This document shows, one piece after another, positions 7,209-55,675 of a stretch of DNA of 64,000 bases (its first letter is position 1; each line of letters starts with the position of its first letter). Where the stretch lies: NCBI GenBank assembly GCA_043228905.1, contig JBHGNT010000001.1, positions 22,320,001-22,384,000 on the forward strand, given 5' to 3'. The notes beneath the pieces are model-generated. The model was not told the origin of the DNA. It was given only the letters and a program-made list of their open reading frames with translations, and ran no database searches. The stretch is from Azolla caroliniana (Eukaryota; Plantae; Polypodiophyta). The position numbers were made by a program, and so were the translations under genes.

Positions 7209-7365
7209 CAGTAGTTGGGACCGACGTGTAATAAAATGTTAAAGTAATATTGTGCTTTACTGTTAAAAAAAGAGAGAGAAGATAGTGACGACTATTAAAA
7301 GGTGTTTATGCATGCACAAACTTCAAGATCAAGCACACGCGGCAACACGATGTCACATAGGCCAA

Positions 7366-9702: not shown

Positions 9703-9717
9703 AGGGACGGGTCTGAC

Positions 9718-9747
9718 GTGCCATGGCACTGTCCCAGATGTGTGCCA
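9718..9747 (+). promoter_or_regulatory. 12-bp palindrome plus tRNA-sense (anti-PBS) motif upstream of the E1 3' LTR
   Basis: GTGCCATGGCAC (9718-9729) then GTCCCAGATGTGTGCCA (9731-9747); homologous to 35366-35395. Confidence 0.7.
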
Positions 9748-9762
9748 AGTATTGGCCTCCAG

Positions 9763-10159
9763 TGTTGTCCGTCGGACATAACGCTTAGACGGGTAGAATA
9801 TATTATTAGAAGTGTTAAAGAAACGCATGTAACGGTTCACACTAGGAGCGTAAGGGACTATAAGCCCTGTGTATATAAAGGGCTGAAATCCTCTAATACA
9901 ATACTATCTTTTCTAATTCCCATGTCTGTGTAAGTTGTCTATTGATTTGGTGTAGTACTCTGTTGGTAAATGTGGGCTAGTAAGCGTAGGGTAAGTGTGT
10001 ATATGAGATCATGCACCGGTGAGATTCGGTTGTAGCCGTCTCCCTTCACGTCCAGATGATATGCTTTGCTTTGTAAGCCTGTTACACTTCGCGCACCTAC
10101 AATAACCTTGAAGTCTACCTCGAAGGATTGAGAGTAGATAGTGTTCCTAATCGGTAACA
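9763..10159 (+). repeat. 3' LTR of E1
   Basis: Matches the 5' LTR with substitutions and two internal deletions (397 vs 455 bp). Confidence 0.93.
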
Positions 10160-22850: not shown

Positions 22851-25800
22851 AAAGTGGACGTGGAAGCCGTAATGAGCAAAGATGGCAAGAAGAACGACCC
22901 CAATATATGGTTTGGAACCCACACGATGACCGACAATATCGGAATCGCCGGAATAACAACGATTCCGAGGAAGACGAACCAGAGAATGAAGACTACCGTG
23001 GCAAACATAGAAATACTAAAGGGGGTCGACGCTATGAGAATTACTGTCCGACGAAAAACGGGGCGGCTTCAATGGGAATCACGGAAAACATCGTCAGTAT
23101 CGAGATCAACGGCGGTACGATGAAAGTTCAGACGATGACCGGCACCAGGAATCGCGCTGGAACCAAGAACAACCACCACGTACGCTCCAAAGAACGAACT
23201 AGGACCAGGAGGAGCAAGTCCCGCCTGGGGATCGACACACACCACCAGTTGTCGAGAAAGGAGAATCTAGCGTCTATTGCTTTGTTTGCCAACAACCCGG
23301 ACATTATGCCATACAATGCCCATTACGCAAGGGCGACGAGCCTGCCATCAATATGATTACGGCGGAAGTGCAGCAAGTCACGACACAACAGCAAACAAAA
23401 AATGTCGATTGGGCCGCGCAAGATGAGATACGTCAGATGGCCCGAGCATGGGTTGAAAAAGCAAACACGGAAAATACGAAACGCATGCGGAAGGAGTCCG
23501 CAAACATGGTGGAGCCGACGGAGGAGGATGTAATATCTCCAGATCCCATATGGCAAGCACTGGCAGACTGTGAGATAACGCTAACCATGGAGAAGCTACT
23601 TCAACTAGTCCCATTGTTCCGCCAGGCCGTGGAGGATCGTATAACGAGCAGACCTGGGGTAAGGGTCTCCGCAAATTTTACGGACATTACAGCCGGACCA
23701 ACAGTGGTGGATCACCACAATCCGGCTATTAGTCTGATACTACTCGGTCAGGAAATCCTAGGATGTGTAATCGACAATGGCTATGGCGTCAATGTAACTA
23801 GTGTGAAGACATGCGAGCAATTGGGAATTTCAGAATGGGAAGTTGCCCGTTTTGGCTTCGCATGGCGGATACCCGCTCAATACGGCTATTGGGTTTGATA
23901 CGCAAGATAGGCATTATCATGGGAGGACATCGCTTCGACGTTTCGGTGGTAGTTCTCGCCCTCAATGCCCCAGGAGTGTCCTATGCTGTTGGGCAAACCG
24001 TGGCTTCATTCAGCGAATATCAAGCAGAGCTAGCAACATAAGTGCATCAGCTTTCGACACAGATGCACCAAGGTTCGCGTACCAACAGAGGAAATGGCGA
24101 CACAACCCAATTGCATAACACCGTTATACGCGGAGGATATAAATATGTTGGCTGGGGTGGATGATACAAAATTAGAAGTATACCTTGATGAGCACCCCTG
24201 GATCATTCCGTTATTCGAAATTGACGTCGGAGTATGCCACGCTCGCTAGCTCTATGACGAGTTTTATGAACCAAACCTAGAGTCAATATTAGAACTAAGC
24301 AGAGCACGGGCAACGTTCGAGAGGGAAATGGAAATTTCACGACGAGTCACTGCCTCTGCCCTGGAAGAAGTAAACGTGGGTACGGCGTCAGAACCCCAAT
24401 TCGTCTCCATTGCAAAAGAATTACTGCCGGATCAAAGAGACGCGATGATAGCACTACTCAGGAAGTATATAGATGTGTTCGCCTGGTCCCACGAGGACAT
24501 GAAGGGGTTAGATCTGAGTTCTATCAATATAAGATCAATTTAGCGACCGATGTGAAATCGGTCCAACAACGTCGATACCGCATGAACCCAAACTACGCGG
24601 CTTGCGTAAAAGAAGAAATTGACAAACTCCTCAAGGCCAGATTCATACGACCAGTCAAACAAGCTACATGGTTAAGCCCGATAGTGGTCGTACCAAAGAA
24701 AAATGGCAAAAATACGTGTGTGTGGACTACTGGAAATTGAACGCAGTAACCATTACCGACACATTCCCTTTACCATACACCGTCGTAGGGCATGACATGT
24801 ACAACTTTTTAGATGACGTTTGTCACGGACTAGGGAGTCTATGTCGCAGTCGTCATGAGGTTTGGGCTAAAGACGGCATTGGCTACATTTCAACATACAA
24901 TCATGGAGATTTTTGGGGAATATATTACGGCCTTCATGCAAGTTTTTTTAGAGAATTTTGCGGTATATGGGACAACAACTGACCATTTTACGCACCTGCA
25001 GCTTTGCCTGGAGCGTTGCCGAACCACGCGCTTAAGCCTGTATCCCGCCAAATGCGCCTTCGGCGTTACCAGTGGGGCTCTCCTTTGCCACATAGTCAGT
25101 AAGGAAGGGATAGTGGTTGATCCGAACAAAATATCCGCGATTACTCATGCGAAAACACTGACAAACATGAAAGCACTTAGCCGGTTTCTGGGACATATAC
25201 GATGGCACAGTCGGATGATACGCTATTTGGAGGATTTCGCCACGCCATTACATGCCGCCGTTCATCAGACTCCTTTCAAATGGACAACAACAGAAGAGAA
25301 GGCGTATGATGCACTAAAGATAATGCTGACGCAGGCACTCGTCGTACAACCACCAATTTGGGCGAAGCCATTCCACCTGTTCGTAGATGCGTCAGACATA
25401 GTAATAGATAGTGCGCTAATGCAGCTCACGGAGCCGAATTGGTACCAGCCAGTGTACTACGCTAGTCGAAAACTATCAACAGCTGAGCGTAACTATTCCA
25501 CAACAGAACGTGAGGCGTTGGGTATGATATACAAGATCAATAAGTTCCGGCATTATCTGTTAGGGCGGAAATTCACGTTTCACGTGGATCATTCAACATT
25601 GCTATATTTGGTAGGGAAACAAGTGCTGACAGGGAAATTGGCTAGATGGATGCTACTGCTTCAAGAATTCGACTTTGTAATTCAGAATAGATAACGGTGA
25701 AACGACGCAAAAGGATGACGACGACTTTCCAGATACGGACATTCTATGTGTAGCAACTCTAGCAAAATGAACGGAAAAAACTTTTCCAGATCGGTGGCTG

Positions 25801-28506
25801 ATGGAAATGACCTACTTCCTGCCGCCACCCCGATTACGGACGGACGAGAAAAAACGGATGGCCGTACGAAGTCAAAATTTCTGTTTAGTAGAAGACATAC
25901 TATACCACAAAGGTAGTGACGGCATCTGGAGGCGTGGAATACGGCAAGATGAGAAGGCCGCGGTTTTACATGAAGCCCACTGTGGTACAGCGGGAGGACA
26001 TTACGCGAGCGATGTTACGGCCGGGAAAATCTGGCAGGCAGGACTTTGGTGGCCGACGACGCAAAGGGATGCGTATGAATATTGTAGACAGTGTGATTTA
26101 TGTCAACGACTGGGCCAGCCCATGGAAGTCGTGAGAATGCCACACCAACTAGTGTTGCCTCTGGATCCTTTCCAAAAGTGGGGGCTAGATTTTGTGGGAC
26201 CATTCACCCGGGCGGCCGCTCGAACAGACAATAAGTACATCTTAGTGGCCATAGATTATTGTACCAAGTGGGTAAAAGCGAAACCACTACGCGAGAATAC
26301 CACGGCAGTCACGGCGAAATTCCTTTACAAACACATCTGGTGTCGTTTCGGCTGCCCTATCAAGCTCATTAGTGACCAAGGGAGTCACTTTTTGAATACG
26401 GTCATCAGCGAACTGACCCAACATTACGTTGTGGTTCACAAAAAGAGTACGCCGTATTACCCACAGGCTAATGGCTTGGTGGAATCCATGAACCAAACCC
26501 TACAAACTATCCTTAAAAAGATAGTCAATGAGAATAGAACGGATTGGGATACCAAATTGCACAACGCGTTATGGGCATACCGTACCAGCTATTAGACCAG
26601 CATACAATCAACGCCTTTCAGGCTAGCATTTTGTCTGGAGGCCGTGATGCCGATCGAATTCCAGGTACCCAATCTGCGGATTCAAGTACGAGCCCGGCTA
26701 CCAGAGGGCAAATCCGAACATGTACGGCTACAACAACTGCTAGAGCTAGGAGAAACAAGGTTACGAAGTATGGTCATCTTGGAGTAGGAACAGCGGTGGT
26801 GCAAGGCATTCGTGGACTGACACTGGCATGTGCGTGAAAAAGATTTTACAATTGGGAAAGCAGTATTAGTTTTCCAAACATGCATGTCGCATATGCCAGG
26901 AAAATTAAGATTCCGCTGGATAGGCCCGTACTGGATAGTGGGAGCAGAACAGGCAAGTTTCAACTTGGCACGTTGGCCGGGGAAGTGTTACGTCAAAAAG
27001 TAAATGGGTTTCGCCTTAAACCTTATCTGGGACCTACGCCACCTAACCCGTTCCCCGCCGAACAGGGCAAAGCCGGAAAATCCGCGGAGTAACTATAAAG
27101 CCCCACCTATACTATAGTGTAAAGATAATATTGTATGTAACCATTACGAAAAAGAAAAAGAAGAGAAGATAGTGACGTTATTAAAAGGACTTAAGGCATG
27201 CACAGACTTCTAGGCCAAGAACACACGGCACCATATTGGCTAACGGACCAATGAACCCTAGGCCACAAAAAGAAGGAAATAAAAGGTTTTCTGCACACTA
27301 TAGAAACCAACCTTCTAACTCGCATCGCTCGTATCACTCCCCTTCCTCATCCTCTTCTCCATCCTATCACAGAGCTCAAGTTCGCCATAGCCAGCAATCC
27401 TCACCCATTAACCACGAGCCTAATCCGACTATGCTAATACCCATCTCTGCCGCCTTGCGTCGATGGCTCATGGAGAAACGCTTGGATGGATACATCAGAG
27501 TCGCCGAGGCACCTCCCCACCCTGAAGCCCTAGACATCGCGAGGAAACTCAATATCGACACAATGACCAACACATCCATCCGGAAAAAGCTTGACCTATC
27601 ATCACTGGGTGAAAGGCATTTCAAAATCCCTCCTGTGGAAACTTTGCAGAGATATTTTGGGCCTTATTCGGCGTCCGCCAAGGCATATAGAACGAAGGAG
27701 ATCCCCGACCCCTTTTTCCGCGAAATAGCCAAGCTCCTGTTGGAGGTCGGATGCATACATGTAAACGCATATGGGATGCCCAAGAAGAAGGCAGGTATCA
27801 TCATTGTTATCTTTTAAGGGCGTATGGTCGATTGGGGGATCATTACGGGACCGGCAATACGGGAAGGCCTGCATGCGTATCAAGGAGGCAAAAAGCTCAG
27901 GCCTATCATACAACAATATCTGACAATACTATTCCAACCCCGAGGTCTACCGGCATCGCAGTCCAGCCAACCTATGCCGCTGCCACGATCCACGAAATGA
28001 AGGTTAGTTGAGTTGGCCACCACAGAGTGGGAGGATGAACCCCAATCTGCCCAAACTAACACGCGAACAATGCAGGAAGAGCGGGCGGAGCGCAACGAGG
28101 AAGCTGCACAAGAGCCAGAAGCCGAACCACGTCAGGAAAGCCCGAGGCCGAAACGGCGGAGGCTGGATAGGAAATATGGATGCGGGTTAGTTAAAGACAT
28201 ACTCGCGGCCACAGAGACGACGACCGTGGTCCACAACTCCCTAGCTACGGAGCCCAACACCACCTTCGAAATAATCCGGGAACCACGATCGATCATTACG
28301 GCCTAGTCTCAACGGGGGAAAGGCGTATTTACGGCGGAAAGCGAGTTCCTGGCATATCCAGACATTCCGGCCACGACCCATGAGTTCGGCACACTATTAC
28401 ATTTTGGAACCACTTCTGAACTCATGGAATTTTTGGCAACGCAACAAATAAAAGTCTCACAAGGAATGGTCGAGGAGCACGCGGAGCGCCAAATGATCGA
28501 GCGCGC

Positions 28507-29178
28507 TGTCGCGTTGTTACGCGCGTGCGTGGAGAAGGGCGGAACCACGGGGGTCTCGGACTAAGGAGAAGGGGAGAAGGAATAGGACTTCGGAATGGAG
28601 CTTAGCACAAGAAGAGGAAGAATGAACAAGAGGAAGATGGAGGCCAAATGCTCAACAAGATATATTAGAACCGAAACCGATTACAAAATGGCGGCCGCGT
28701 AGGCCGCACCAAACGACTATGATAAACCCGAAACCCTAATCCGACGAAGAAGAAAAGAAACCCTAACCCTAAAACGAAATGGTATACCTCACTCACACTC
28801 AAAATAAGGCAACCCCCACAATGGTGCTCTTCCTCTCCCTTTATAGCACAAGGAGGGAAGACCGTTACATAAAGGGGTGCTACAAAATATCCCCTTTCAA
28901 TCAATGGGGATATTTCCCTTGATTTTAGGGGAGGTGGGAAGGATGGGTCTTAACTCCCACCTCTACACGAACTACTATGTACCTATCTCTCTCTCTCACG
29001 TGGATGTGCGCGCAAAAGCACATCACCTCTACACTTTACAAATCCTAAGGTGCATTTCTAGCACCATACTTATCACTATCGATAAATAGAAATACAACAT
29101 GGTGATGTGCAACGTTGCACATCGCGGGTTTGCTTGCTTCGCTCGGTTTTCCGCCTATGGACGAAAATCTTCACGACA
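28507..29178 (-). repeat. 3' LTR of the tRNA-Trp element
   Basis: Identical by eye to 33207-33878 except at 28518, 28520 and 28523; identical small ORFs in the track. Confidence 0.95.
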
Positions 29179-29191
29179 TCCGCCCCCACCT
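29179..29191 (-). promoter_or_regulatory. Polypurine tract
   Basis: AGGTGGGGGCGGA on the minus strand abutting the 3' LTR. Confidence 0.75.
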
Positions 29192-29201
29192 AACCGCACA
29201 T

Positions 29202-32200
29202 CTACCGGTATGTGCCAAAAGGGGAACAAAACGCGAGATTTTCGGCCAAGGCGGCCAACCGAGCCCTTGACAACCTCGTGGGCTTGCCCGGCTTCGTCTT
29301 CCACTTCGAGCAAGTCCACCCCGTCCACACGAACCACCGTCGCCTTCCGGCCCACCATATCCGCCGAATGGTCTCGAACCGGCGGCTCCATCCGATCCGC
29401 CACACTCGACAATGCTCGCCGAGTCGTTGCCTCCACCTGATCCGCCACGTCCACCGTGTTTCCTCGAACCACCGACTACACTCGGACCGCCATATCCGAT
29501 GCCCGTGCTTTCCTCCCCGTTCGGTCCTCCCGAACGCCGTTGCCGACCCTTTGTCCGCCTCGCATATCCTCCGGATCCGCCTTTTTCGTGCCGCGCACCT
29601 CGTCGTGCCGACTCTTCTCGCTCCGCGCTCGCCTTCCGTAGGCTTTCCCCGTATGTCGGTGTCGTCCTCCGAATGCGTGCTCGTGCTTCGGTCCTTCGAT
29701 GACCCCATCACGCATTTTTCGTCTTCCCCTTGCTTGCCGTGCTCTCTCGCCGTAGAGCATACCATCGTTCCCGTGCTCGTTGCTTGGCCCTCATGCGACC
29801 GTATTGCACGTTTCGCATTCCGCTCCTCTTCGCGTACCCTTTCGGAAAGGTACCCTTCTTCCCCGACCTCCGTTTCGCTCGGAGGAACACCCTCTTGGCC
29901 CCCTTGGCCCGCTCGACCGCACACATCCTTCGTGATGTCGTGTTCGTTCCTTTGGGCGCATACATCTTCGTTCACCGCGACCTCCCGTATGCCTCTCTCG
30001 GTGCCTTCATCCGTTGTGGCCTTCGTCCCCTCGCCGCCACCGTCCGCCACTCTTGGTCTCACGTCGGCACTCGCGCCGATCGCCGGAGTCTCTATAGCCG
30101 GTGTGGAGGATCCCTCTCGGGTCTTATCTTCGTGGCCGCCGGTCTTAGCCTCTCCGTAGGCCACCTCTTCCCACCAATCTTCCCTAGCATCGTGCCGGGT
30201 CTCGTCGTCGCCGCCTTCCTCCTCGTATTCGCCTCTCGAAGGCGTGATCCGACCGTCATCTTCGGTTGCTCGATGTGGCTCCTTCGTAGGCATGCTTGTG
30301 TCTTGGCCCTCCATCGGCCGTATTGCATGCATCTCGTCTCGCTCTTCCGCCGTAGACCCGACCTCCGTGTCGGTCTTCTCCTCCTTTGTCGCCGTAGCCC
30401 GTTCCGACACGGGCTCGCCGTCTTGGACCCACCCGTCCACCATCTCGTACCGGATATCCGTTCCGGTAACCTCGTACGCTCCGGTCTCCGACTCCTCGCC
30501 GCCACCCGCCGTTTCTCCGGTCTTATGTTGATCCGCAACCGCCGTAGTCTCTAGAGTGGGTATGGAGGGTCTCGTTTGTTTCCGTTTTTCCCCCGAACCA
30601 TGGTCGTCGTGCCCGGCTAGCCTCCATCTCGCGCTTACCGGCTCCCATCGTAACCGTAACCGTAACCGGCCAATCGGTCTCGCCGGCTTCCTTCGGTTTG
30701 GGCCCGGTTCGCCGGCCCTTACTCTCTTCTTCTTCCGTGCCGTATTCCGGTCGGGTCGGTTCCCGACTCTCTCCTCGTTTCCGCTCCGGTCCTCTCCGTC
30801 GGACCCACCGTATACGCCCATTCCGGGCCCCGCATACTCATCTTCGTATGCGCTCTCTCCGGGCCTCACCTCCTCACGGTCACCGCCCATCTCTCCGGTC
30901 TCACGTTGGCATTCGAGCACAACCGCCGAAGTCTCCGGCCCCGACGTCAAGGGGTCTTGCCTCCGTCCGCTCCAATCTTCCTTCTCGATTCCGTTGCCCG
31001 CCTTGCCGCCGTCACCTCCCGTCGCACTAAGCCTCATGCCGGCTCTTGGGCCGGCCATTGGAGCCTCTAGGATTGGTGTGGGTAAGGACCCGGCACCGCC
31101 GCTTGTTGTCTCCGTAGCCGCTTTCGTTCGGACGTCGTTGTCCGCGGCTCCCCCATCTCCGATTCCGTAAGCCTCTAGTATGCTTGCCACCACCTCTTCT
31201 TCGCCGTTCTCCGCATCATTTTGTTTGCCCGCCTTGCCGCCGCCACCGCCCGTCGTTCTAGGTCTCGTGCCGGCACTCGGGCCGACCGCCGAAGCCTCTA
31301 GGGCCGGTGTGTGGAAGGTCGCGGCACCACTACTCCTCTCGTCCGTAGCCACCTCCATTCGGACATCGTCGTCCGTGGCTACCCCGTCTTCGGTTTCGCA
31401 AGCATTGAGTATGCTTGCCGCCGCCTCTTCTTCGCCGGTCTCGTCCTTATCTCGGTTGTCCGCCTTGCCGCCGCCACCGTCCGTAGCTCCAGGTCTCGTG
31501 CCGGCACTCGGGCCGACCGCCGAAGCCTCTAGGGCCGGTGTGTGGAAGGTCGCGACACCGACGCTCGTCTCCTCTTCCTCCTCCATTTCGCAAGCCTCGA
31601 GTATGCTCGCGAAATCCTCGTAGAACGTTTCGGGCAACCGCGTCCCGAAACTTCCGCCCACTCTCGAAGTGGCGTCCATCGCTCCGTAGATATCGGCCTC
31701 ATCCATGGCCGTTCTTTTTCCCCGAGATGAGACGGTCGCTTGCTCCGCACCTTCTCTCGTGTCGACGCCGTGGTCGCCCGCCTTGCCACAGCCACCGCCT
31801 TTCACCATAGGTCTTACGCGGGCACTCGGGCCGGCCGCCGTGATCTCCCGGAATGACGCGTGTAAGGTCGCGGGACCGCCGCTCGTCGATGTAATGTCCG
31901 TAGCCACCTCCGCTCGGACGTCGTTGTCCGTGGCTACCCCGCCTCCGTATATGCAAGCATCGGTTATGCTCGCCGCCGCCTCTTCCGCGGTCTCCTTACC
32001 GTTGTCTCGGTTGCCCGCCTTGCCGCCGCCACCGTGCTTTTCCCTCGGTCTCACGCGGGCGCTCGGGCCGGCCGCCGGGGTCTCTTGAACCGGTGCGTGG
32101 AAGGTTGCGGTACCGCCGCTTGTCTCCTCCGTACTCGATGATTCGGGCCACCATGTCCCGAATCCGCCATGTCCGCTCGAATCGGCGACCGCCGCCTCAC

Positions 32201-33164
32201 CGTCCCCGACCTCGTCCTCGGTCGTTCTTTCCCCCCATGTCGAGAGGGCGGCTCGCTCCGCACCCTCTCCCGTGGTACCGATGTACCATTCTCTTTCGGC
32301 CTCCGCATAGGCCCCGTCCTCCATGTGTGAGGAAGCTCCTTCCTCCGCGTCCTCCGATCCGCTCGGGCCCGACCCCGCAATAAGCCATTCTTCGGCTTCG
32401 ATTTTCGCCATTACGAGCCCGCACGCCTCCCGTATTAGCGCTTGTAGGTCGAGCCCCTCCAAACCGGTTCGCGATGAGCTCTCGTCCGGCGGCATGGCGT
32501 AGTTGGTCGTCGCTCTCTCTTCTCCCCCGCTCGCGGGCCGTGTTGTGGCCGACCGCCTCGCCTCATGTTGCCGACACACCCATTCCACTTCGGGCCACTC
32601 CTCGGTGAGACCATGCGCCCCATAATCGTCTTGAAGCTCGAACGTGATGTCCATCCTCTCCTCGTGATGGACCGTCTCCAAAAATAGGAGGACTTTGTCC
32701 GCCCCCACCGATCTTCGTTCCCACTCCGAGAGTTGAGAGAAACGACGCTCGAACTCTCGGAATGCCTCTATTGCGCTCCGATGGCGCCTCGCCGACGCCA
32801 TCCACCGATCGAACTCTCGCCGACCTCTTACCTCCGATTCCGCGCACCCGTATGCCTCCATTAGAGCCCCTTCAAAGGACTCCCACGATTCGTGAGCTTC
32901 TTGGAGCTCCTTGACCTCCTCGTACTTTGATGCGGCCGCCGCTCGACGAAAGAACTCTAGCCTCGTCGCTTCGTCCACGCCCATCCCCGTCATTTCCGCA
33001 TCGTAGGCTCTCAAAAATTTTGGGACCTCCTTCCCATCGAACCGGCCGACTAGACGGACCACCCTTTCGACCGCTTGTTGAGCCGCCTCTCGCCTCGCCC
33101 TCTTCCGTCCGGCGTCCGTCAAGATCTTTGTCATCATCTCCTCGAAGTCGAAGCCTTCCTCCAT
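29202..33164 (-). CDS. 1320-aa protein: retrotransposon Gag-like N-terminus plus long acidic G/A/T/E-rich repeat tail, no Pol motifs
   Basis: Fully open ORF filling the internal region; RFDGKEVPKFLRAYDAEM...WESFEGALMEAY...FERRFSQLS resembles gag; about 60-aa repeats ATFHTPALEASAVGPSAGTRP. Confidence 0.85.
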   Translation of the reverse strand: MEEGFDFEEMMTKILTDAGRKRARREAAQQAVERVVRLVGRFDGKEVPKFLRAYDAEMTGMGVDEATRLEFFRRAAAASKYEEVKELQEAHESWESFEGALMEAYGCAESEVRGRREFDRWMASARRHRSAIEAFREFERRFSQLSEWERRSVGADKVLLFLETVHHEERMDITFELQDDYGAHGLTEEWPEVEWVCRQHEARRSATTRPASGGEERATTNYAMPPDESSSRTGLEGLDLQALIREACGLVMAKIEAEEWLIAGSGPSGSEDAEEGASSHMEDGAYAEAEREWYIGTTGEGAERAALSTWGERTTEDEVGDGEAAVADSSGHGGFGTWWPESSSTEETSGGTATFHAPVQETPAAGPSARVRPREKHGGGGKAGNRDNGKETAEEAAASITDACIYGGGVATDNDVRAEVATDITSTSGGPATLHASFREITAAGPSARVRPMVKGGGCGKAGDHGVDTREGAEQATVSSRGKRTAMDEADIYGAMDATSRVGGSFGTRLPETFYEDFASILEACEMEEEEETSVGVATFHTPALEASAVGPSAGTRPGATDGGGGKADNRDKDETGEEEAAASILNACETEDGVATDDDVRMEVATDERSSGAATFHTPALEASAVGPSAGTRPRTTGGGGGKAGKQNDAENGEEEVVASILEAYGIGDGGAADNDVRTKAATETTSGGAGSLPTPILEAPMAGPRAGMRLSATGGDGGKAGNGIEKEDWSGRRQDPLTSGPETSAVVLECQRETGEMGGDREEVRPGESAYEDEYAGPGMGVYGGSDGEDRSGNEERVGNRPDRNTARKKKRVRAGEPGPNRRKPARPIGRLRLRLRWEPVSARWRLAGHDDHGSGEKRKQTRPSIPTLETTAVADQHKTGETAGGGEESETGAYEVTGTDIRYEMVDGWVQDGEPVSERATATKEEKTDTEVGSTAEERDEMHAIRPMEGQDTSMPTKEPHRATEDDGRITPSRGEYEEEGGDDETRHDAREDWWEEVAYGEAKTGGHEDKTREGSSTPAIETPAIGASADVRPRVADGGGEGTKATTDEGTERGIREVAVNEDVCAQRNEHDITKDVCGRAGQGGQEGVPPSETEVGEEGYLSERVREEERNAKRAIRSHEGQATSTGTMVCSTAREHGKQGEDEKCVMGSSKDRSTSTHSEDDTDIRGKPTEGERGARRVGTTRCAARKRRIRRICEADKGSATAFGRTERGGKHGHRIWRSECSRWFEETRWTWRIRWRQRLGEHCRVWRIGWSRRFETIRRIWWAGRRRWFVWTGWTCSKWKTKPGKPTRLSRARLAALAENLAFCSPFGTYR

Positions 33165-33184
33165 CTCTTTCTCCCTTGCCGCCC

Positions 33185-33202
33185 TTCACGTCGGGTTCAC
33201 CA
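33185..33202 (-). promoter_or_regulatory. tRNA-Trp primer-binding site
   Basis: Plus strand TTCACGTCGGGTTCACCA matches the plant cytosolic tRNA-Trp 3' end as I recall it; 4 nt from the 5' LTR. Confidence 0.88.
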
Positions 33203-33206
33203 AAGA

Positions 33207-33878
33207 TGTCGCGTTGTAATGCACGTGCGTGGAGAAGGGCGGAACCACGGGGGTCTCGGACTAAGGAGAAGGGGAGAAGGAATAGGACTTCGGAATGGAG
33301 CTTAGCACAAGAAGAGGAAGAATGAACAAGAGGAAGATGGAGGCCAAATGCTCAACAAGATATATTAGAACCGAAACCGATTACAAAATGGCGGCCGCGT
33401 AGGCCGCACCAAACGACTATGATAAACCCGAAACCCTAATCCGACGAAGAAGAAAAGAAACCCTAACCCTAAAACGAAATGGTATACCTCACTCACACTC
33501 AAAATAAGGCAACCCCCACAATGGTGCTCTTCCTCTCCCTTTATAGCACAAGGAGGGAAGACCGTTACATAAAGGGGTGCTACAAAATATCCCCTTTCAA
33601 TCAATGGGGATATTTCCCTTGATTTTAGGGGAGGTGGGAAGGATGGGTCTTAACTCCCACCTCTACACGAACTACTATGTACCTATCTCTCTCTCTCACG
33701 TGGATGTGCGCGCAAAAGCACATCACCTCTACACTTTACAAATCCTAAGGTGCATTTCTAGCACCATACTTATCACTATCGATAAATAGAAATACAACAT
33801 GGTGATGTGCAACGTTGCACATCGCGGGTTTGCTTGCTTCGCTCGGTTTTCCGCCTATGGACGAAAATCTTCACGACA
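33207..33878 (-). repeat. 5' LTR of the tRNA-Trp element
   Basis: Direct repeat of 28507-29178; minus-strand TATA GCTATAAAGG near 33540; telobox motifs. Confidence 0.95.
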
Positions 33879-35365
33879 GCGTGCTAACACAAACAGCGGA
33901 AAGCGACGAAGAGGATCAGTTAGCCAGAGTCAGCCGACAGAGGAACGCCGGTATCCGCCGTATGGGGATGGAACTACCCCCATTAAACGTGGCCCTTGTC
34001 GAAGTTCATAGGGAACTGGCGAAGGTTAGTATGGGCGCCAAGGATATGGCGATTAAAAATAAAAATGTCTAGAAGACTGTCAAATTGACCCAAGCCGAGT
34101 TACAAAACGCCAACGGACACATTGCGGAGTTGGAGCGCAACACGACTACGGCGCAACAGGCAGCTCAACCAACATCCAACGCTGCCGAGGCCCTGAGAGA
34201 TGAAATTGAAGCCCAGACTGCCATTGCCTCGAAAGCAAAACGGGCCGTGCAACTGGCGGAATCGGGGACTGACCGTCTCTGCTCCGAACTTCGCCAGTCC
34301 TCGAACAGAGAGAAGGACATCCGGGCCAACGGCTGAAAGGCAATGAAGACCCTTGAAGAGAAACTCGTAGCGGAGGCAGGATAGCACACCCGCATGAAAG
34401 AAGAAAACGCCAAACTATGGGAGGAAGCGAAAAAATCGTAAGCGGAGATTACGGGACTCCAGGCGTTATTAGACAAGAAGAAAGCATGGTTCGACGAGTA
34501 GCTAGTTGGGGAACAAGAGAGGAGGAATCAGCTCGAAATACGCCTGAACAATGAAATGGGAAAGATGGAAGAATTACATTCGAAGGAATCTCCGCAATGG
34601 GCAAGGATGAGGAGCACGTAAAAGTGGCGCTAGACAAAGGCTGGATGGCGTGGCCCGCACAAGCAGCGGAATTGCATACATACCGGGCGGACTGGGAGAC
34701 CCGAATGAAGGACGACGAAGGGTTCTACAAACTCAATGAGGAAAGCATTGTGATAGTACGTGAGGACCTAGCGTAGGACTATCGCACGCTAGTGGACCAA
34801 CACTCCGAGGAACCCGTGCAGCTACTAGACGATTATGGCGAAAGTCAGGATCATGCAACTACTAGACCTGTTTCACCAGATCATGCAAGCCGGCAGCACG
34901 CGAACAAACGAGGAATCCATCGCGATACCAATTCCAGATATTGCCGAACAAGAGGAACCTCAGCCCATGTCACCGGAAATAACCGCTACGGTGGACAGCA
35001 CAGAACAGCAAGCAGAGCCCCCCGCGGTACCAGAAAGCGAAACCGCTGACCAAGAGGAACCCAAGCCCCATTCACCGGACTGTACGCCTATGGCCAACGC
35101 CACGGAGGAAGTTATGGATGAGACAGAACCTCGACCGGCCGCAAGCCCACCGACGGCTGAACCAACCACAATAGCACAAGATGAGCCAGCAAAGCTTGGA
35201 CCGCCCACACAAGAAGCCAGCGACACCATGGGAAGCCCTCTTGAGCAAGTAGTGGAACCATGCAATGACGCGCCTAGGAACAGTACGCCATCCCCGGACC
35301 CGGACACCGGAGCAAAACCAAACATCAGGGCCATTTTGGAGGAAGATTAAAGGGGTGGGTCCGAC

Positions 35366-35397
35366 GTGCCATGGCACTGTCCCACAGGTGTGCCAGG
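35366..35397 (+). promoter_or_regulatory. Palindrome plus tRNA-sense anti-PBS abutting the E2 3' LTR
   Basis: GTGCCATGGCAC (35366-35377), GTCCCACAGGTGTGCCA (35379-35395), GG, then LTR TG. Confidence 0.8.
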
Positions 35398-35865
35398 TGT
35401 TGTCCGCCAGAATAGTAACCGACGGACAGTAGTGCAGATATATAGAATATAGTAAAATTGTAACGCATGTAAACGGTTCATGCGGGAAGTGTGAACGGCT
35501 TAAAGACCTGTGTATATAAAGGGTAGAAATCCTCTGATAGAGGTAGCGTGTAAATTTGGGTGCATAGAGTGTATCTTAATAGAGTGTTATCTTCTGCATA
35601 TCTGTGGCTAATCTACTGTGTGTCTGTGATTCTTGGTGTCATATTGTAATCACTGTAATCGTAAGAAGCGTAGGCGTAAGTGCGAGTGTTGTGACGAGTG
35701 CACTGTCTAGGGAGTTCAGTTGTAGCCGTCTCTCGTATACGCTACTAGGATGTGGAGAGGTATCCCATTATGTATTACAGCACGACGGTACCATTCGGGG
35801 CTATGTAGTCACCTTGAGATCTAGGTCAAAGGACTGACTGAAGACCGTGTTCCTAATCAGTAACA
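35398..35865 (+). repeat. 3' LTR of E2
   Basis: TGTTGTCC...CCTAATCAGTAACA, homologous to the E1 LTRs. Confidence 0.9.
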
Positions 35866-36771: not shown

Positions 36772-39700
36772 TGTTGAGAGACAAGCTCAACATCGGCCGG
36801 ATCGGCTAAGCAAGCCGAGGACCAGATCGGTTGGGACCGATCGGTTAGGCCGGACTGGTGCGTAACGAGAGGCCGTATCGATGCATAAACCGAAAGGCCG
36901 TTAGAGAGATATTCCTCGTAAAGGAATAATTTTGGGAGTGAGTGTTGATGCTCACTTAGGAGTAGTCAAGTACTATCAGTACTTGTGTCAGCCCAATTGT
37001 CAGGGCTTGTATAAAAGTGCTCAATGAGCACATCCTATTTATAGAGGAATGGCTAGCTCGCTTCCGACGGAGAAGCTCGACAAAACCAACTACGCATCTT
37101 GGTCCGACAAGATGCACCAGTAGCTGCTTGGGCACGGTTACTGGAGCTATGTTGATGGAGCAAATGACACAACACAAAAAGACTTCCCGGCGTGGGAACA
37201 ATCGGCGAGCAGAGTGTTGTACTGTTTCGCGTCTTGTGTGGGCGAACAACTATTAAGCTACGTTCGTGATGCAAAAACGCCGAAGGGTGCGTGGGAAAAT
37301 CTGAAGAAGATCTTCGCCGCGAGCAGCACAGCTAGGAAGCTTCAGCTCCGACAGGAGTTGAGCAACCTACCACATCGCGAGTTGTCGGTGGCTGACTATA
37401 CCTCGAAGATCAAGGACATATGCGACTCTTTAGCTTCCAACGATGTGAACATCGAGGAAAGCGAGATGGTCCAGGTCTGTCTAGAGGGTTTGGCATCAAA
37501 GTTTGGAGCATTCCGAACTGCTATGTGTACACGGGAGAATACGCCGTCGTTTTTTGATTTACAGTTGATGCTCCTTATAGAGGAGAACCACGTGGGTGCG
37601 TCGACAAGCACGCATGTCGACAACAAGATGTTGTACACGGAGGGAGAGAGGCCCCGTGGTCATGGCGGATGAAGTGAGTTGGTACGCAGTGGACACGGCC
37701 GATGGGATCAAGGAAGAAGGTGCCGAAGTGGTGCAGACAGCATTTCTGGACCCTCCGCGGAATGCCGGTACTGTAGCCAGAAAGGCCACAAGGAGAGAGA
37801 GTGCTGGAAAAAGCACGCCGATTCGGAGAAAACTAGGTCCGGAACAGGTTCCGGACAGACCGACAAAGGAAATCGGAGACGATCGCACTACTTCGAAGGA
37901 TCCGGAGAAGCCGGAAAAGGGACAGTCTTCATGACGAGACATGAAGCAAACTCAATTAAGAAGATCGCCCCGAAATCGAAGGAGCTGTGGTACATCGACT
38001 CTGGCTCGTCAAACCACATGACAAGCCATGAGGAGTGGTTCTCATACCTTGAGAAACCGACGCAACTCGGAGTAGTCGCAACCGGAGACGACACGTCGCA
38101 TCCGATCGCGAATGTCGGTGAAGTTCCCTTGAGCCATGTCGGGCAGAAAGGGAAATTTATGAACGTGTTACACATCCCGACAATCACGAAGAATCTGGTG
38201 TCGGTCAGGCAGATCGTCGACCAAGGAATGTAGGTTCGTTTTACACACCTCGGGTGCTTCATTGAGGAAGAAGGCCATGTTATTGCGCAAGGGCACAAAG
38301 ATAGGAGGATGTTCATCCTCGACTCTACTGACGGTGGCACTGCAATGTTCGCGAACGGACAAAAAGTCGAGTTGGACATCAACTTATGGCACAAGCGGAT
38401 AAGCCACATGAACTACCAGCGGCTTCAAGACTTGCAATCGAAACAAGTGGTGTTAGGATTGCCCAAATTTATTGGCCGGAAGGCGCAAATTTGTGAAGCC
38501 TGCCAGCTTTGGAAGCAAGACCGACTTCCCTTCCGCAACGAGCGTAACCGGAGCCGGAACAAGCTCGACTTGATACACTCCGATGTGTGGAGGCTGGCAC
38601 AAATCATTAGTCTTGGCAGGAGCCGATATTTCGTCTCCTTCATCGACGACTACACACGGCACACGTGGATCTGCCTCATTGAGAGGAAGAGCGAAGTCTT
38701 CGACTATTTTCAGGACCTCAAAGGGTTCGTGGAAATGGAAACAGGAAGAAAGATCAAGTGCCTGCGGTCGGATGGCGGAAAAGAATACTTTTCCCGTCAA
38801 TTCAATGGTTATCTACAACATATGGGAATTTGGCATGAATTCAGTTGTAGATACACTCCGGAGATAAACAGCGTGGCCGAGAGGAGAAATCGGTCAGTTG
38901 TGGAAGTGGCATAGGCAATGTTGGAAGAAAAGAGCTTGCCCAAGTTCTATTGGGCCGAGACGGTACGAACCGCGGTATACATCCAGAATCGGATCGGAGA
39001 CAAAGTGTCGACGCATGAGCTATATTTCGGAACAAAGCCGAACTTGCGACACTTACGAGTTTTCGGTAGCATTGCGTATGTGCATGTGCCGAAGTAGAAA
39101 TGGAGGAAGTTGGATGCAAAGGCCGAGAAATGTATCTTGGTCTGTCACTCAGACGGGCAAGAGGGTTATAAGTGTTATAACCCGTGCACCAAACAAGCGT
39201 GCGTGAGCCGCGACGTTGTGTTTGACGAGTCCACGTCCTGGTACTTGCCTCTGACTCCGGACCTCACCTCCAATCCGAGTTCTGACGATGAGTTCAGCGA
39301 GGCTGAGATGCCTCCGATGAGCTTGAAATCGGGACCCGCAAAGAGAGTTCGATTTCGTTTCGGTTAAGTGGACCGAATGGACGACGGAGTCGGTTCGACC
39401 AGTCTGATGAAGAGTCGGCGAGTAATGGAGACTCGGCCGTGCATTCCCCGTGCAGGAAGCCGAGGAGACGGCTTACGCGCAAAGAGAAAGGGAAGAAGAA
39501 GGGAAGCGGTGACGGATAGAAACGAATCGGACCGACGCGAGTCCGACTCAGAGGGAAGCGGTGACGGGTCTTCAAGATCGAAGTCCGCGTCGGCCAAGAA
39601 GACCTCGACCTCGGCTAATGACCGATTACGCCGATCTACCTGCCAGAAGAACCCAATTGTGCGGTTCGGATACAACAAGTACAAGGCGCATCATTATGCG

Positions 39701-42226
39701 TACATAACCCGTTTAGCGGAAGTGCATGAGCCGGAGAGCTATACAGAAGCAGCTAAGAACGTGAATTGGTGCACCGCGATGGAGGAAGAGATGCACACAT
39801 TGGCGGAGAACAAGACCTAGGACCTAGTTGACGCACCGAAGGGTGTGAAGCCGATCGGATGTAGGTGGGTGTACAAGGTCAAGTACAACACCGACGGCTC
39901 GGTCAACCGATACAAGGCCCGATTAGTGGCAAAAGGCTATGAGCAGAAACACGACATTGACTATGATGAGACGTTTGCGCTGGTCGCGAAGATGACGATC
40001 GTCCGTGTTTTGCTCGCGGTAGCTGCGGCAAAGGGGTGGCACTTACATCAGATGGATGTAAAGAATGCGTTCCTGCAAGGTGAGCTTGAGGAACAAGTAT
40101 ACATGGTACAACCCCCCGGATTTCACTCCGGAACGAACATGTCGGAAGTGCGCCGATTGAAGAAGTCCCTTTACGGACTCAAGCAAGCCCCGCGTGCCCG
40201 GAACGCGAAGATCACGCAGCAACTACGTCGGATGGGCTTTGCAACGTCAAAATTGGACTCTTCCCTGATCATCCGGAAAGCTCAACTTGGGCTGGTTAGT
40301 ATTTTACTATATGTTGATGACTTGGTCATCATCGGCGCTGACCTAGGTCAAATCGACTGCGTGAAGCTCTAGCTTAAGACATCATTTGACATGAAGGATC
40401 TGGGGGACCTTCATTACTTCCTCGAGATCGAAGTGATCCGCACCCCCGAAGGTATACTGATCAGCCAACGTCATTACGCGCTGAATATGCTCTTCAAATT
40501 CGGGATGGCAGACTGTAAGTCCGTCTCGACTCCTCTGGATAGAACCGTCAAGCTTCGCCCCAATTCCGGAAAAGTATGCGACCCGACGAGGTTCTGACAA
40601 ATTGTCGGAAGCCTTAGATTCTACTTGACAATCACCTGACCCAATCTCAGTTATCCGGTCGGGATGATCAGTCAGTTCATGGCGCGACCTACCGAGGAGC
40701 ACCTTCAGTGTGCGCAACGTGTACTGTGGTACGTAAGCGGCACTAAGGACCGGGGACTGCTATATCGGACCGGTACAGCCTCGCAGTTGTTCGGCTACAC
40801 CGATGCTGATTGGGCTGGCAACGCCGCTGATCGCCGATCCACATCCGGATACGCGTTCTCTCTTGGGAGTACCGCGATAGCGTGGAGCAGTAAGAAGCAG
40901 CCGATAGTGCACTGTCGAGCACCGAAGCTGAGTACCAAGGAGCGGTTGTCGCAACATGCAAAGCCATATGGTTGAAGCGGCTACTTAAGGACCTGAAAGA
41001 GGAGGTGTGCGATCCGACGACGATCTACTGCGACAACCTCAACAACATCCAGCTCGCGAAGAACCCCGTTTTCCACGCATGGACCAAGCACATTGAGGTG
41101 CATTACCATTTTGTCCGTGAGTGTGTCCTTTTTTGTGAAGTCGAACTTCAGTATGTTCCGACGAATCGGCAAACTGCCGACATCTTCACCAAACCTCTTG
41201 GACTGGACAAGTTGCGGCAGTTCTCGGGTGCGCTTGGGTTGCGTCACCTCGACGTGCCAGACTTGAGGGGGAGAGATGTCTCGGATGACCACAGAAGGGG
41301 GAGAGAAGACCGCGACGCCGAGTCAGATGACGAATTCGACTTCGGATCGGTTGAAGAAGCCAAGGGCGGATCTGCGGAAGAGTCCAAAAGCGGACATAAG
41401 GGGAGCAACCGGAAGAAAGAGCCAAAGCCAACCAAGCATGGGGGAGATGATGCCATCAAGGGCGAGAAGACCGAAGACGAGTTGGAGACAGCCAACTCGG
41501 ACGAGGGCGAAAACCGATCGGAGGTAGCCGAGTCGGTTCGGATGTTTGATTCGGATACACTGAATCAACCGAGGGCCAAGTGGAAAAGAAGGCAGCAGGA
41601 GAAGCACCAACACCGCGACAGCAAGGAAGCTATGAAGGGTCGTGGGAGCAGACAAACCGACCGAAAGGGTCGAAGCACGCGGAGTCGAACAGATCGAGGA
41701 GCGCGAGCGAGGCGTGGAGCCAGGAGAAACCGGAGCGGTGATCCGGAAGATCCTGAAGAGCCTCAAGTTGAGCTTGAGGGGGAGTGTTGAGAGACAAGCT
41801 CAACATCGGCCGGATCGGCTGAGCAAGCCAAGGACCGGATCGGTTGGGACCGATTGATTAGGCCGGACCAGTGTGTAAAACGGATGCGTAAACCGGTGCG
41901 TAACGAGAGGCCGTATCGGTGCGTAAACTGAAAGGCCGTTAGAGAGATATTCCTCATAAAGGAATAATTTTAGGAGTGAGTGTCGATGCTCACTTATGAG
42001 CAGTCAAGTACTGTCAGTACTTGTGTCAGCAGGATTGTCAGGGCTTGTATAAAAGTCCTCACTGAGCACATCCTATGTATAGATTAAGTATGATTTTTGA
42101 ATTAAGTTCGTGTGTTTACCCTCTCTCCATCTCTCCCGTGAGTACTGTGCAAACCTAAGCTTTCCATTAAACCTGTGTTTTCTGTTGTTCGGTTTCCTAT
42201 ATTGCTTCCGCACGCCATTCTAATGA
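36772..42226 (+). mobile_element. Ty1/copia B2 (Bryco-like)
   Basis: TSD CGGTT on both sides (36767-36771, 42227-42231); partial 5' LTR 36772 to about 37046, gag-pol to 41790, PPT, 3' LTR 41785-42226. Confidence 0.95.
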
Positions 42227-53737: not shown

Positions 53738-53910
53738 TCATGAGGGAACTTGTAAGCAATTTCCTTCCCTTAACCTCGTGTTTGTTTTAGTCATAGTGAA
53801 CTTGATTGCGATAATGGCCTCAACATAGATTATGGCGGTGGGTGCATCTTTTACTAAAGCATACATGTGGGAGGACCATCGCAACTTTCCATAGTAGTTG
53901 TTATATTGAA
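53738..53910 (-). pseudogene. Diverged duplicate of the transposase C-terminal segment at 54800-54975
   Basis: YALVKDAPTAIIYVEAIIAIKFTM vs YALLQDAPTTIIYDYAIFAIKFTM. Confidence 0.7.
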
Positions 53911-53911
53911 C

Positions 53912-54650
53912 AAAAGAGGATATATACATGACGAGAAACAATTAACACTATAAGAGCACCAAACACTTTATGAAAACCAAAGAGGATATATACATTACTA
54001 GAATTAGTTAGCACTATTAGAGCACCAAATACGCTATGAAAATCAAAGAGGATATATACTATACTAGAAACAATTAACACTATAAGAGCACCAAAAACTT
54101 TATGAAAACCAAAGAGGATATTACATTACTAGAAACATTTACCACTATAAGAGCACCAAACACTTAACGAACACCAAAAAGGATATATACATTACTAGAA
54201 ACAGTTAACACTACAAGAACACCAAACACTTTATGAAAACGAAAGAGGATAATACATTACTAGAAACAGTTCACACTACAAGAGCACCAAACACTTTACG
54301 AAAACCAAAGAGGATATTACATTGCTAGAAACATTTAACACTATAAGAGCACCAAACACTTAACAAACACCTGAAAGAGGATATATACCTTACTAGAAAC
54401 AATTAACACTACAAGAGCAACAAACACTTTATGAAAACCAAAGAAGATAATACATCACTAGAAACATTTAACATTATATTAGCACCAAACACTTTATGAA
54501 AACCAAAGAGGATAATATATTACTAGAAAACTTTAACACTATATAAGCATCAATCACTTTATGCAAACCAAAGAGGATATATACATTAATAGAAACAATT
54601 AACACTATAAGAGCGCCAAACACTTTGGGAAAACCAAAGAGGATATATAT
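53912..54650 (+). repeat. 65-66-bp minisatellite, about 11 copies
   Basis: Unit similar to AAAGAGGATATATACATTACTAGAAACAATTAACACTATAAGAGCACCAAACACTTTATGAAAACC; GAGGA at 53916, 53982, 54048, 54114. Confidence 0.92.
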
Positions 54651-55641: not shown

Positions 55642-55675
55642 TGGACGTTCTGCATCACAGGTAGCCAAACAATAT

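What the first reader, a model, noticed from the sequence alone, without database searches (positions are those of the whole stretch)
28507..33878. Young Pol-less LTR element with a tRNA-Trp PBS and one intact 1320-aa Gag-repeat protein
Seen: near-identical 672-bp LTRs, an 18-nt PBS, a PPT, and a single ORF starting 20 nt after the PBS and ending about 10 nt before the PPT. The ORF has no stops although all neighbours are riddled with them, and the DNA is GC/CpG-rich. The first 220 aa or so look like Gag. The remaining 1100 aa or so are acidic, probably disordered repeats with a basic, Trp-rich C-terminus and no D(S/T)G, YxDD or DDE motifs. Established: Gag-only TR-GAG elements exist, and tRNA-Trp priming is typical of avian leukosis/sarcoma viruses and HERV-W, whereas most plant elements use iMet, Arg, Lys or Asp. 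Inference: a non-autonomous parasite whose giant tail may remodel or hijack helper particles, or act as a restriction-type Gag.
Basis: partly seen in the sequence, partly recalled or inferred. Interest (0 to 1): 0.8.

Follow-up and report, generated by a model that had tools for sequence, protein, structure and literature searches.

The report
Gag-only retrotransposon with stretchable protein linker
This young, multi-copy plant jumping gene has no copying enzymes and encodes one protein, a predicted capsid joined by a long repeat-built spacer to a conserved tryptophan/arginine tail; that tail likely replaces the lost RNA-gripping zinc finger, and a related complete element likely supplies the enzymes.

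Summary
In detail: 672-bp LTRs (3 differences), an 18-nt PBS, a PPT and one open 1320-codon frame. Residues ~33-207 model as a two-lobed Ty3/Arc-type capsid. Its named homologues are moss and liverwort Gag-protease proteins. The 4-bp NCGN target duplication and the (recalled) tRNA-Trp PBS are the published norms of the Phygy lineage, so the avian/HERV-W comparison is misleading. The element belongs to a multi-copy, deeply branched clade that lacks the zinc knuckle; no pol was found. The tail is not decayed pol. It is built by in-frame duplications (15 of 15 offsets are multiples of 3, against 3 of 22 LTR indels). Its length varies widely between relatives and its sequence is weakly constrained or neutral (dN/dS 0.68-0.95). 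A C-terminal Trp/Arg motif is strongly kept (Trp retained 45 of 46, against 8 of 26 in the linker). Best reading: a TR-GAG-like parasite of Phygy-type helpers in which a basic Trp/Arg module likely replaces the nucleocapsid and must stay tethered in frame to the capsid. Relatives lacking one capsid lobe in frame exist. A new variant of a known kind; moderate interest.

The parts
33207..33878 (-). 5' LTR, 672 bp, TG...CA; TATA-like hexamer at 33545-33540
33185..33202 (-). 18-nt primer-binding site, 4 nt inside the 5' LTR; recalled as the complement of the 3' end of plant cytosolic tRNA-Trp
   Evidence: same PBS in L032 and L033; tRNA identity recalled, not shown by a call
29205..33164 (-). single ORF, 1320 aa
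32844..33068 (-). capsid N-terminal lobe (aa ~33-107), predicted
   Evidence: AF2 with 99-row alignment, pLDDT 93; Arc N-lobe Z 9.0, rmsd 1.9 over 69 aa; Ty3 CA-NTD Z 6.6
32544..32834 (-). capsid C-terminal lobe (aa ~111-207), predicted
   Evidence: Arc C-lobe Z 8.4, PEG10 CA-CTD Z 8.1, rmsd 2.5 over 84 aa
29625..32384 (-). acidic Gly/Glu/Ala/Thr-rich linker (aa 261-1180, net charge -80) built of in-frame tandem duplications; no zinc knuckle
29205..29624 (-). basic C-terminus (aa 1181-1320, net +29) holding the Trp/Arg motif at aa ~1225-1290 (29492-29295; 13 Trp and 18 Arg+Lys in 66 aa)
29179..29192 (-). polypurine tract (11 of 14 purines), inside a long predicted hairpin spanning 29150-29260
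28507..29178 (-). 3' LTR, 672 bp
28503..28506 (.). target-site duplication, left copy (GCGC; fits NCGN)
33879..33882 (.). target-site duplication, right copy (GCGT; one mismatch, fits NCGN)

Best explanation
This is a recently inserted, multi-copy LTR retrotransposon with no pol gene, likely derived from the Phygy lineage, whose single protein is a predicted capsid tethered by a long variable linker to a conserved Trp/Arg-rich end that likely binds the element's RNA in place of the missing zinc knuckle. Shown in sequence or calls: LTRs, PBS, PPT, 4-bp NCGN duplication, one open frame, no pol, no knuckle, in-frame repeat growth, retention of the C-terminal tryptophans. Predicted: the two-lobed capsid fold. 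Inferred: the RNA is made from the 5' LTR and translated into this one Gag. Gag would co-assemble with Gag/Gag-Pol of an autonomous Phygy-type helper and draw its own RNA into the particle through the basic C-terminus. The helper's RT would prime on tRNA-Trp and its integrase would make the 4-bp NCGN duplication. Copies whose frame breaks between capsid and C-terminal motif would lose this cis advantage, so selection keeps the frame while the linker's sequence and length drift, growing by template-switch duplications. Odds: non-autonomous Gag-only element about 0.95; Phygy-type origin about 0.85; tether/nucleocapsid-substitute role about 0.55.
For: Capsid: pLDDT 93; the 18 best of 48,161 VIA-align chains are all Arc, Copia, PEG10, PNMA, MOAP1, Ty1, Ty3 or retroviral capsids, best Z 10.1; Atlas feature hits 0.91-0.92 to Retrotrans_gag clusters. 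Lineage: distant homologues at about 30% identity include Riccia sorocarpa and Physcomitrium patens proteins, several with DUF4100 and a gag aspartyl protease; Phygy has 100% 4-bp NCGN TSDs and 81% tRNA-Trp PBS; the 4-bp length is shown by empty-site joins and by the host element's frame; L033's LTR is also preceded by NCGN. Knuckle loss: the query lies in a 28-row clade (100/99) with no knuckle-bearing row, while all rows labelled knuckle lie outside it. Frame kept: 15 of 15 internal repeat offsets and 10 of 10 ORF joints of known net size are multiples of 3, against 3 of 22 LTR indels; 220-261 amino-acid differences to P0005, P0006 and P0226 would bring about 11-13 stops each if neutral (0.05 stops per missense). 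Linker weakly constrained: dN/dS 0.68 (0.43-1.06) on non-overlapping repeats, 0.95 pooled, 0.95 against L032. Motif constrained: identity to the two distant relatives 56-59% against 22-27% in the linker; Trp kept 45 of 46 against 8 of 26; after the motif the proteins end in three different frames. Precedent: foamy virus Gag lacks zinc fingers and uses a basic C-terminus (PMC5035957).
Against: The helper element was not found: no genome is held, and the window has no second copy of the PBS or the Gag. Capsid dN/dS (0.44, 0.27-0.75, one comparison) is not significantly lower than the repeat value (Fisher p=0.52). Against L032 the last 120 codons show 3 synonymous and 12 non-synonymous changes. 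Trp has one codon, so protein-level and RNA-level conservation cannot be separated without DNA of the distant relatives. Relatives lacking a whole capsid lobe in frame exist, so an intact own capsid is not always needed. Foldseek gave no match at E<=0.001, and the best Z (10.1) is under the tool's caution level of about 13 for helical folds. Protein searches favour open frames, and the pairwise counts are not independent. 4 of 15 long N-terminally complete relatives lack the motif. TatI also has 4-bp TSDs and tRNA-Trp PBS.
Confidence: 0.55

Rival explanations
1. The element is the same Phygy-type Gag-only parasite, but the frame is kept open for the sake of the RNA: translating up to the PPT avoids a 3-kb untranslated 3' region that would trigger decay or silencing, and the conserved Trp codons are part of a cis-acting RNA signal.
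For: Near-neutral linker; every open member stops close to the PPT; half-capsid variants stay in frame; a strong hairpin spans the 3' end (z -5.5); long 3' UTRs are reported NMD triggers in plants (PMC6009662 introduction).
Against: In Physcomitrium long 3' UTRs were not positive predictors of NMD (PMC6009662). Tryptophans in the linker are lost freely (8 of 26 kept) while those of the motif are not (45 of 46), and non-Trp motif positions vary (20 of 42 kept in the distant relatives). The motif stays in the capsid's frame although a second frame is open for 178 codons there.
Confidence: 0.22
2. One reading: the giant acidic tail is itself the functional novelty, remodelling or enlarging helper particles, or the protein acts as a dominant-negative, restriction-type Gag.
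For: Glu and Asp exceed what base composition gives (12.2% against 6.4%; 6.1% against 3.6%) and Arg is depleted, so charge may be selected; the non-overlapping repeat dN/dS has a point value under 1; variants with only the C-terminal lobe (P0005, P0006 and the deletion 56-114 group) resemble Ty1 p18, which blocks assembly (PMC8458377 abstract; Drt2 CA-CTD Z 6.6).
Against: Protein length ranges from 618 to 1419 aa among members that keep the motif; the linker is 22-27% identical to the distant relatives; this copy has both lobes, young LTRs and many near-identical relatives, which fits a mobile parasite and not a domesticated restriction gene.
Confidence: 0.15
3. The long open frame is a by-product of GC richness, tandem duplication of a stop-poor unit and recent insertion, with no selection on the tail.
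For: At the divergence since insertion a tail stays open 76% of the time; in the 139 non-overlapping repeat codon pairs alone only about 3 stops are expected (P0 0.05); some relatives are broken.
Against: 15 of 15 repeat offsets and 10 of 10 joints in frame against 3 of 22 LTR indels; 25-30 gap runs per pair between open relatives and about 11-13 expected stops per comparison; the other five frames carry 15-33 stops.
Confidence: 0.05

Closest known systems
Phygy lineage of non-chromovirus Ty3/gypsy elements (Neumann et al. 2019, PMC6317226; passages, section 13 and Additional file 5 read)
   Same: 4-bp NCGN target duplication; tRNA-Trp PBS (identity recalled); capsid homologous to Physcomitrium and Riccia Gag-protease proteins.
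   Different: No protease, RT, RNase H or integrase; no DUF4100 region and no CCHC knuckle; 5.4 kb against 7.7-10 kb; long repeat linker and Trp/Arg end.
TR-GAG elements (Chaparro et al. 2015, PMC4350172; abstract and passages read) and the larger GAG/PROT-only families of sugar beet (PMC13570524; passages read)
   Same: LTRs, PBS, PPT, one Gag ORF, no enzymes, several copies, young; presumed mobilised in trans.
   Different: 5372 bp exceeds the 4-kb limit; TSD 4 bp, not 5; ORF 1320 aa against 433 aa in TR-GAG1; TR-GAG1 keeps a zinc finger and has no internal duplication; the genomes listed in the passages read are angiosperms plus Selaginella.
Foamy virus Gag (PMC5035957; passages read)
   Same: Gag without Cys-His zinc fingers, with a basic C-terminal region serving as RNA-binding module: a functional analogy for the proposed role.
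   Different: A retrovirus with its own Pol; Gly/Arg rather than Trp/Arg; no sequence relation tested; no 900-aa acidic linker.
Ty1 p22/p18 and Drt2 capsid-CTD restriction factors (PMC8458377; abstract read; Drt2 seen as a PDB title)
   Same: Related CA-CTD fold; some relatives of this element encode only the CTD lobe.
   Different: This copy has both lobes; restriction is untested; the half-capsid relatives keep the long tail.

Membership tests
Phygy (non-chromovirus Ty3/gypsy) | Placement by RT/RH/INT phylogeny | not testable with these tools
   The element has no pol and no helper was recovered.
Phygy (non-chromovirus Ty3/gypsy) | 4-bp TSD with NCGN preference | tested here: met
   GCGC/GCGT flanks; empty-site join of element plus 4 bp in 3 of 4 runs; NCGN before the LTR of L033; norm. 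Two sites only.
Phygy (non-chromovirus Ty3/gypsy) | tRNA-Trp PBS | tested here: inconclusive
   18-nt site conserved in L032 and L033; the Trp identity is recalled; scans found no tRNA gene to confirm it.
Phygy (non-chromovirus Ty3/gypsy) | Gag related to that of bryophyte non-chromovirus elements | tested here: met
   About 30% identity, E 1e-14 to 1e-23, to 9 of 9 tested homologues, among them Riccia and Physcomitrium proteins. That those proteins come from Phygy elements is inferred.
Phygy (non-chromovirus Ty3/gypsy) | Polyprotein spanning a 7.7-10 kb element | tested here: not met
   5372 bp, Gag only. So: a likely non-autonomous derivative, not a canonical member.
TatI | 4-bp TSD and tRNA-Trp PBS with an extra aRH domain | tested here: inconclusive
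   TSD length and PBS fit (4 elements only); aRH cannot be tested without pol; the NCGN preference is reported for Phygy only.
TR-GAG | LTRs, PBS, PPT and TSD | tested here: met
   (TSD is 4 bp; the paper mentions 5 bp)
TR-GAG | One ORF similar to Gag only; no protease, RT, RNase H or integrase | tested here: met
   Capsid by structure and features; no pol. No direct Pfam Gag hit for the query itself.
TR-GAG | At least two copies | tested here: met
   L032 and L033; 7,000-9,800 contigs laid in each of three DNA runs.
TR-GAG | Length at most 4 kb | tested here: not met
   5372 bp against the 4-kb filter; later work reports larger Gag-only families. It works like a TR-GAG but is not one under the original definition.
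Capsid-CTD restriction factors (Ty1 p22/p18, Drt2) | Gag fragment with the CTD lobe only | tested here: not met
   Both lobes are modelled in this copy; some relatives lack the N-terminal lobe.
Capsid-CTD restriction factors (Ty1 p22/p18, Drt2) | Blocks transposition of the cognate element | not testable with these tools
   Needs a bench test.

The most novel reading that the evidence does not exclude
An old Gag-only retrotransposon lineage of seed-free plants has replaced the zinc-knuckle nucleocapsid with a new Trp/Arg RNA-binding module held at the end of a freely expanding linker of up to about 1,000 residues, and has spawned subfamilies with only one capsid lobe that spread by co-assembling into other elements' shells: a modular, layered parasitism of retrotransposon particles.
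Probability: 0.3. Interest if true: 0.68.

Novelty: new variant of a known kind. Interest (0 to 1): 0.42.

Why it matters
Why non-autonomous TR-GAG-type elements keep a Gag gene at all is an open question (raised in PMC4350172). This family offers a natural experiment: frame, capsid and a short C-terminal motif are kept, while the knuckle, the linker sequence and at times a whole capsid lobe are not. If the Trp/Arg end binds RNA, it would show a zinc-finger-free packaging module in a plant Ty3/gypsy derivative and support the idea that Gag is retained for cis-preferential packaging. If not, it is still a clear case of selection on an open frame and not on protein sequence. The tRNA-Trp PBS itself is ordinary for this lineage.

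Tried and rejected
No whole genome is held, so no genome-wide copy census or helper search was possible. Pfam gave nothing for the ORF or its capsid part; the alignment profile found no solved structure by sequence. The single-sequence AF2 model (pLDDT 58) gave only designed helical repeats and was dropped. Foldseek with the good model had no match at E<=0.001, though capsids led the list. The Atlas gave no usable hit for the C-terminal 140 aa. Attempts to confirm the tRNA identity failed: 31 viral loci matched the 15-mer but 0 of 31 held a tRNA gene, and a longer pattern matched nothing in two collections. FoldIndex called 84% of the capsid region unfolded, so it was discarded as a disorder test. 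The metagenome scan returned only 2 loci, which limits DNA-level selection tests. No RNA holder was listed. Target duplications of 2, 5 or 6 bp were rejected in favour of 4 bp. Decayed pol was rejected: 9 homologous Gag or Gag-protease proteins match only the capsid region, and 6 Pol pieces of the window give no match better than E 0.014. A retroviral affinity of the PBS was rejected. Earlier scan notes held no look-alike. Paper searches listed no description of a Phygy-derived Gag-only family; the library lacks most subscription journals, so this does not show absence from print. Additional files 1 and 3 of PMC6317226 (per-element PBS and sequences) were too large to read; they may bear on the PBS identity and on whether such elements are already catalogued. 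No complex prediction was run, as no helper Gag from the same host was identified.
Full report
1. Observation. The element spans 28507-33878 and reads on the minus strand. The LTRs are 672 bp with TG...CA ends and 3 differences, all within 6 nt at the U5 end. At the rice rate used in PMC4350172 (1.3e-8) this is about 0.17 Myr; the host's rate is unknown and the clustered changes may be one event. An 18-nt PBS lies 4 nt inside the 5' LTR and 20 nt before the ATG. The ORF has 1320 codons; the other five frames hold 15-33 stops and shuffles average 43. There is no protease, RT or CCHC pattern and no Pfam hit. This copy stops 23 nt before the 3' LTR; its closest relatives run four codons further to a stop next to the PPT.

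2. Insertion site. The element interrupts an older gypsy element whose paralogue at about 3275-9898 lacks it. The flanks are GCGC and GCGT. Contigs of 3 of 4 DNA runs join 28506 to 33883, a skip of 5376 = 5372 + 4, and of four trial lengths only 4 bp keeps the host element's frame. The duplication is therefore 4 bp and fits NCGN, as does the flank of the related LTR in L033.

3. The N-terminus is a capsid. With a 99-row alignment AlphaFold2 gave pLDDT 93 and an all-helical two-lobed model. The 18 best of 48,161 VIA-align chains are all Gag capsids: dArc1 Z 10.1, Arc N-lobe Z 9.0 (rmsd 1.9, 69 aa), PEG10 CTD Z 8.1 (rmsd 2.5, 84 aa), Copia, PNMA2, Ty3 and others. These Z values are modest for a helical protein and Foldseek had no match at E<=0.001, but the agreement of the list, the Atlas feature hits to Retrotrans_gag clusters and Retrotrans_gag matches in 7 of 99 aligned homologues point the same way.

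4. Lineage. Distant homologues at about 30% identity include proteins named from Riccia sorocarpa and Physcomitrium patens; several continue into DUF4100 and a gag aspartyl protease. In PMC6317226 (passages, section 13, Additional file 5) Phygy elements have 4-bp NCGN duplications (100%) and tRNA-Trp PBS (81%), and NCGN preference is reported for Phygy alone; TatI shares the 4-bp length and the Trp PBS. That this PBS is Trp is recalled, not shown: scans found no matching tRNA gene. The host is probably a seed-free land plant; earlier AI notes on this genome say fern or moss, untested here. In a tree of 71 capsid sequences (79 with at least 140 of 181 profile positions, 8 duplicates dropped) the query lies in a 28-row clade (100/99) with no knuckle-bearing row, whereas all rows labelled knuckle lie outside (17 of its 28 rows are too short to score, and some outside rows lack the pattern too). 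Capsid identity inside the clade falls to about 50%, so the knuckle-less state is old.

5. Family. Five 1419-aa proteins differ from each other at 2-20 positions; they may be collapsed assemblies of one subfamily in different samples. Motif-bearing members range from 618 to 1419 aa. In three DNA runs 7,000-9,800 contigs lay on the region. The ratio of depth of near-identical contigs to that of diverged ones suggests very roughly 20-100 close copies in three runs and 11 in the fourth; summed depth at the PPT edge is thousands of times higher, so many related elements share the ends. Depth is not a true copy number. Two poly(A) RNA runs, labelled as another organism than the best holders, gave 124 and 79 of about 12.6 million reads, mostly 90-95% alike and mostly in the orientation expected for sense RNA in usual stranded libraries: a weak hint that relatives are transcribed, and nothing about this copy.

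6. The tail. It is not pol: 9 homologous Gag or Gag-protease proteins match only the capsid part, and 6 Pol pieces from the window give nothing significant. It is built of duplications. All 15 internal repeat offsets are multiples of 3, as are 10 of 10 ORF joints whose net size is known (joints of unknown insert size were left out, and these counts overlap). The LTR control has 3 of 22. Youth explains the absence of stops since insertion (P 0.76) but not across the lineage: 220-261 amino-acid differences to three open relatives imply about 11-13 stops each if neutral, with 25-29 gap runs per pair. Protein searches favour open frames, and 4 of 15 long N-terminally complete relatives lack the C-terminal motif. 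The linker's sequence is weakly constrained: dN/dS 0.95 pooled over overlapping repeat pairs, 0.68 (0.43-1.06) on 139 non-overlapping pairs and 0.95 (0.58-1.83) against L032; the capsid gives 0.44 (0.27-0.75) against L033, not significantly different from the repeats (p 0.52). Glu and Asp are about twice what base composition predicts, so acidity may be selected or simply inherited from the first unit.

7. The C-terminal motif. The last 140 aa carry net +29; aa 1225-1290 hold 13 Trp and 18 Arg+Lys. In the two distant relatives the motif is 56-59% identical over 27 aligned residues, like the capsid (52-67%) and unlike the linker (22-27%). Over five relatives Trp is kept 45 of 46 times in the motif and 8 of 26 in the linker (pairs not independent). 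So avoidance of stop codons alone does not explain it. Downstream of the motif proteins end in three frames. Against this, the last 120 codons show 3 synonymous and 12 non-synonymous changes to L032, and Trp's single codon means an RNA-level signal is not excluded; a strong hairpin lies just downstream (z -5.5).

8. Half capsids. Among stored proteins of at least 100 aa and 45% identity, 17 have an internal deletion of 40 aa or more; 4 lack aa 111-193 (C-terminal lobe), 5 lack about aa 56-114, and P0005 and P0006 lack most of the N-terminal lobe yet run open to the motif. These are separate 90% clusters, which suggests that the deleted forms multiplied, but most are short fragments and their DNA was not seen.

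9. Mechanism. Shown: the anatomy above. Predicted: the capsid fold. Inferred: the element is mobilised in trans by an autonomous Phygy-type element whose RT uses the same tRNA and whose integrase leaves the NCGN duplication; its own Gag co-assembles with the helper's and favours packaging of its own RNA through the basic Trp/Arg end, which stands in for the lost knuckle, as the basic C-terminus does in foamy virus Gag (PMC5035957, passages). Frame is then selected because capsid and motif must stay linked, while the spacer drifts and grows. Overall 0.55. Rivals: RNA-level selection on an open frame, 0.22 (weakened by the finding that long 3' UTRs do not predict NMD in moss, PMC6009662, passages); an active acidic tail or restriction role, 0.15 (Ty1 p18, PMC8458377, abstract); chance, 0.05. 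The helper was not found.

10. Comparison and novelty. It works like a TR-GAG (PMC4350172, abstract and passages) but fails the 4-kb limit and lacks the zinc finger of TR-GAG1; larger Gag-only families are known (PMC13570524, passages). It is a likely Phygy derivative, not a canonical member. PMC6911290 (passages) confirms 4-bp TSDs for Phygy. Five paper searches listed no Phygy-derived Gag-only family of this build, within the limits of the library; large supplements of PMC6317226 could not be read. Verdict: real, a new variant of a known kind. The PBS is ordinary; the interesting parts are the frame-protected, sequence-free linker, the conserved Trp/Arg end and the half-capsid relatives. Interest 0.42.

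Noticed in passing
window 23200-28506 and 33879-35540; paralogue about 3275-9898: The element sits inside an extra 3' ORF of an older gypsy element with RT, RNase H and integrase at 24834-26592; a 65-70% identical paralogue lacks the insertion. Lineage not classified.
   Followed up: partly
window 29150-29260 (minus strand): A long predicted RNA hairpin pairs the sequence upstream of the PPT with the start of the 3' LTR (-53.6 kcal/mol, z -5.5, 0 of 200 shuffles as good). Very high summed contig depth here suggests many families share it.
   Followed up: partly
window 29171-29707 (minus strand): A second, Gly-rich frame is open for 178 codons over the Trp/Arg motif and into the LTR; several relatives switch into it after the motif.
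   Followed up: partly
proteins P0005, P0006, P0026, P0029, P0037, P0040, P0053, P0062, P0063, P0068, P0102: Relatives with in-frame loss of most of one capsid lobe, with recurring breakpoints.
   Followed up: partly
L033:846-891: Two LTR-like starts 45 nt apart, each preceded by an NCGN tetramer: probably one family member inserted near the end of another's LTR.
   Followed up: no
window 53909-54649 and 55671-57357: AT-rich tandem arrays of 65-bp (11 copies) and 72-bp (24 copies) units.
   Followed up: no
window 13711-18681 and 37142-42129: Two copia elements, 76% identical, in inverted orientation.
   Followed up: no
whole window: No CpG depletion in this repeat-filled region (o/e 0.91-0.94; 1.31 in the ORF), unusual for methylated plant repeats (general knowledge).
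   Followed up: no
window 32180-32284: In both raw RNA runs about 20 reads of the opposite orientation end at 32284 and continue in unrelated sequence: a fragment of the family inside another transcript.
   Followed up: no
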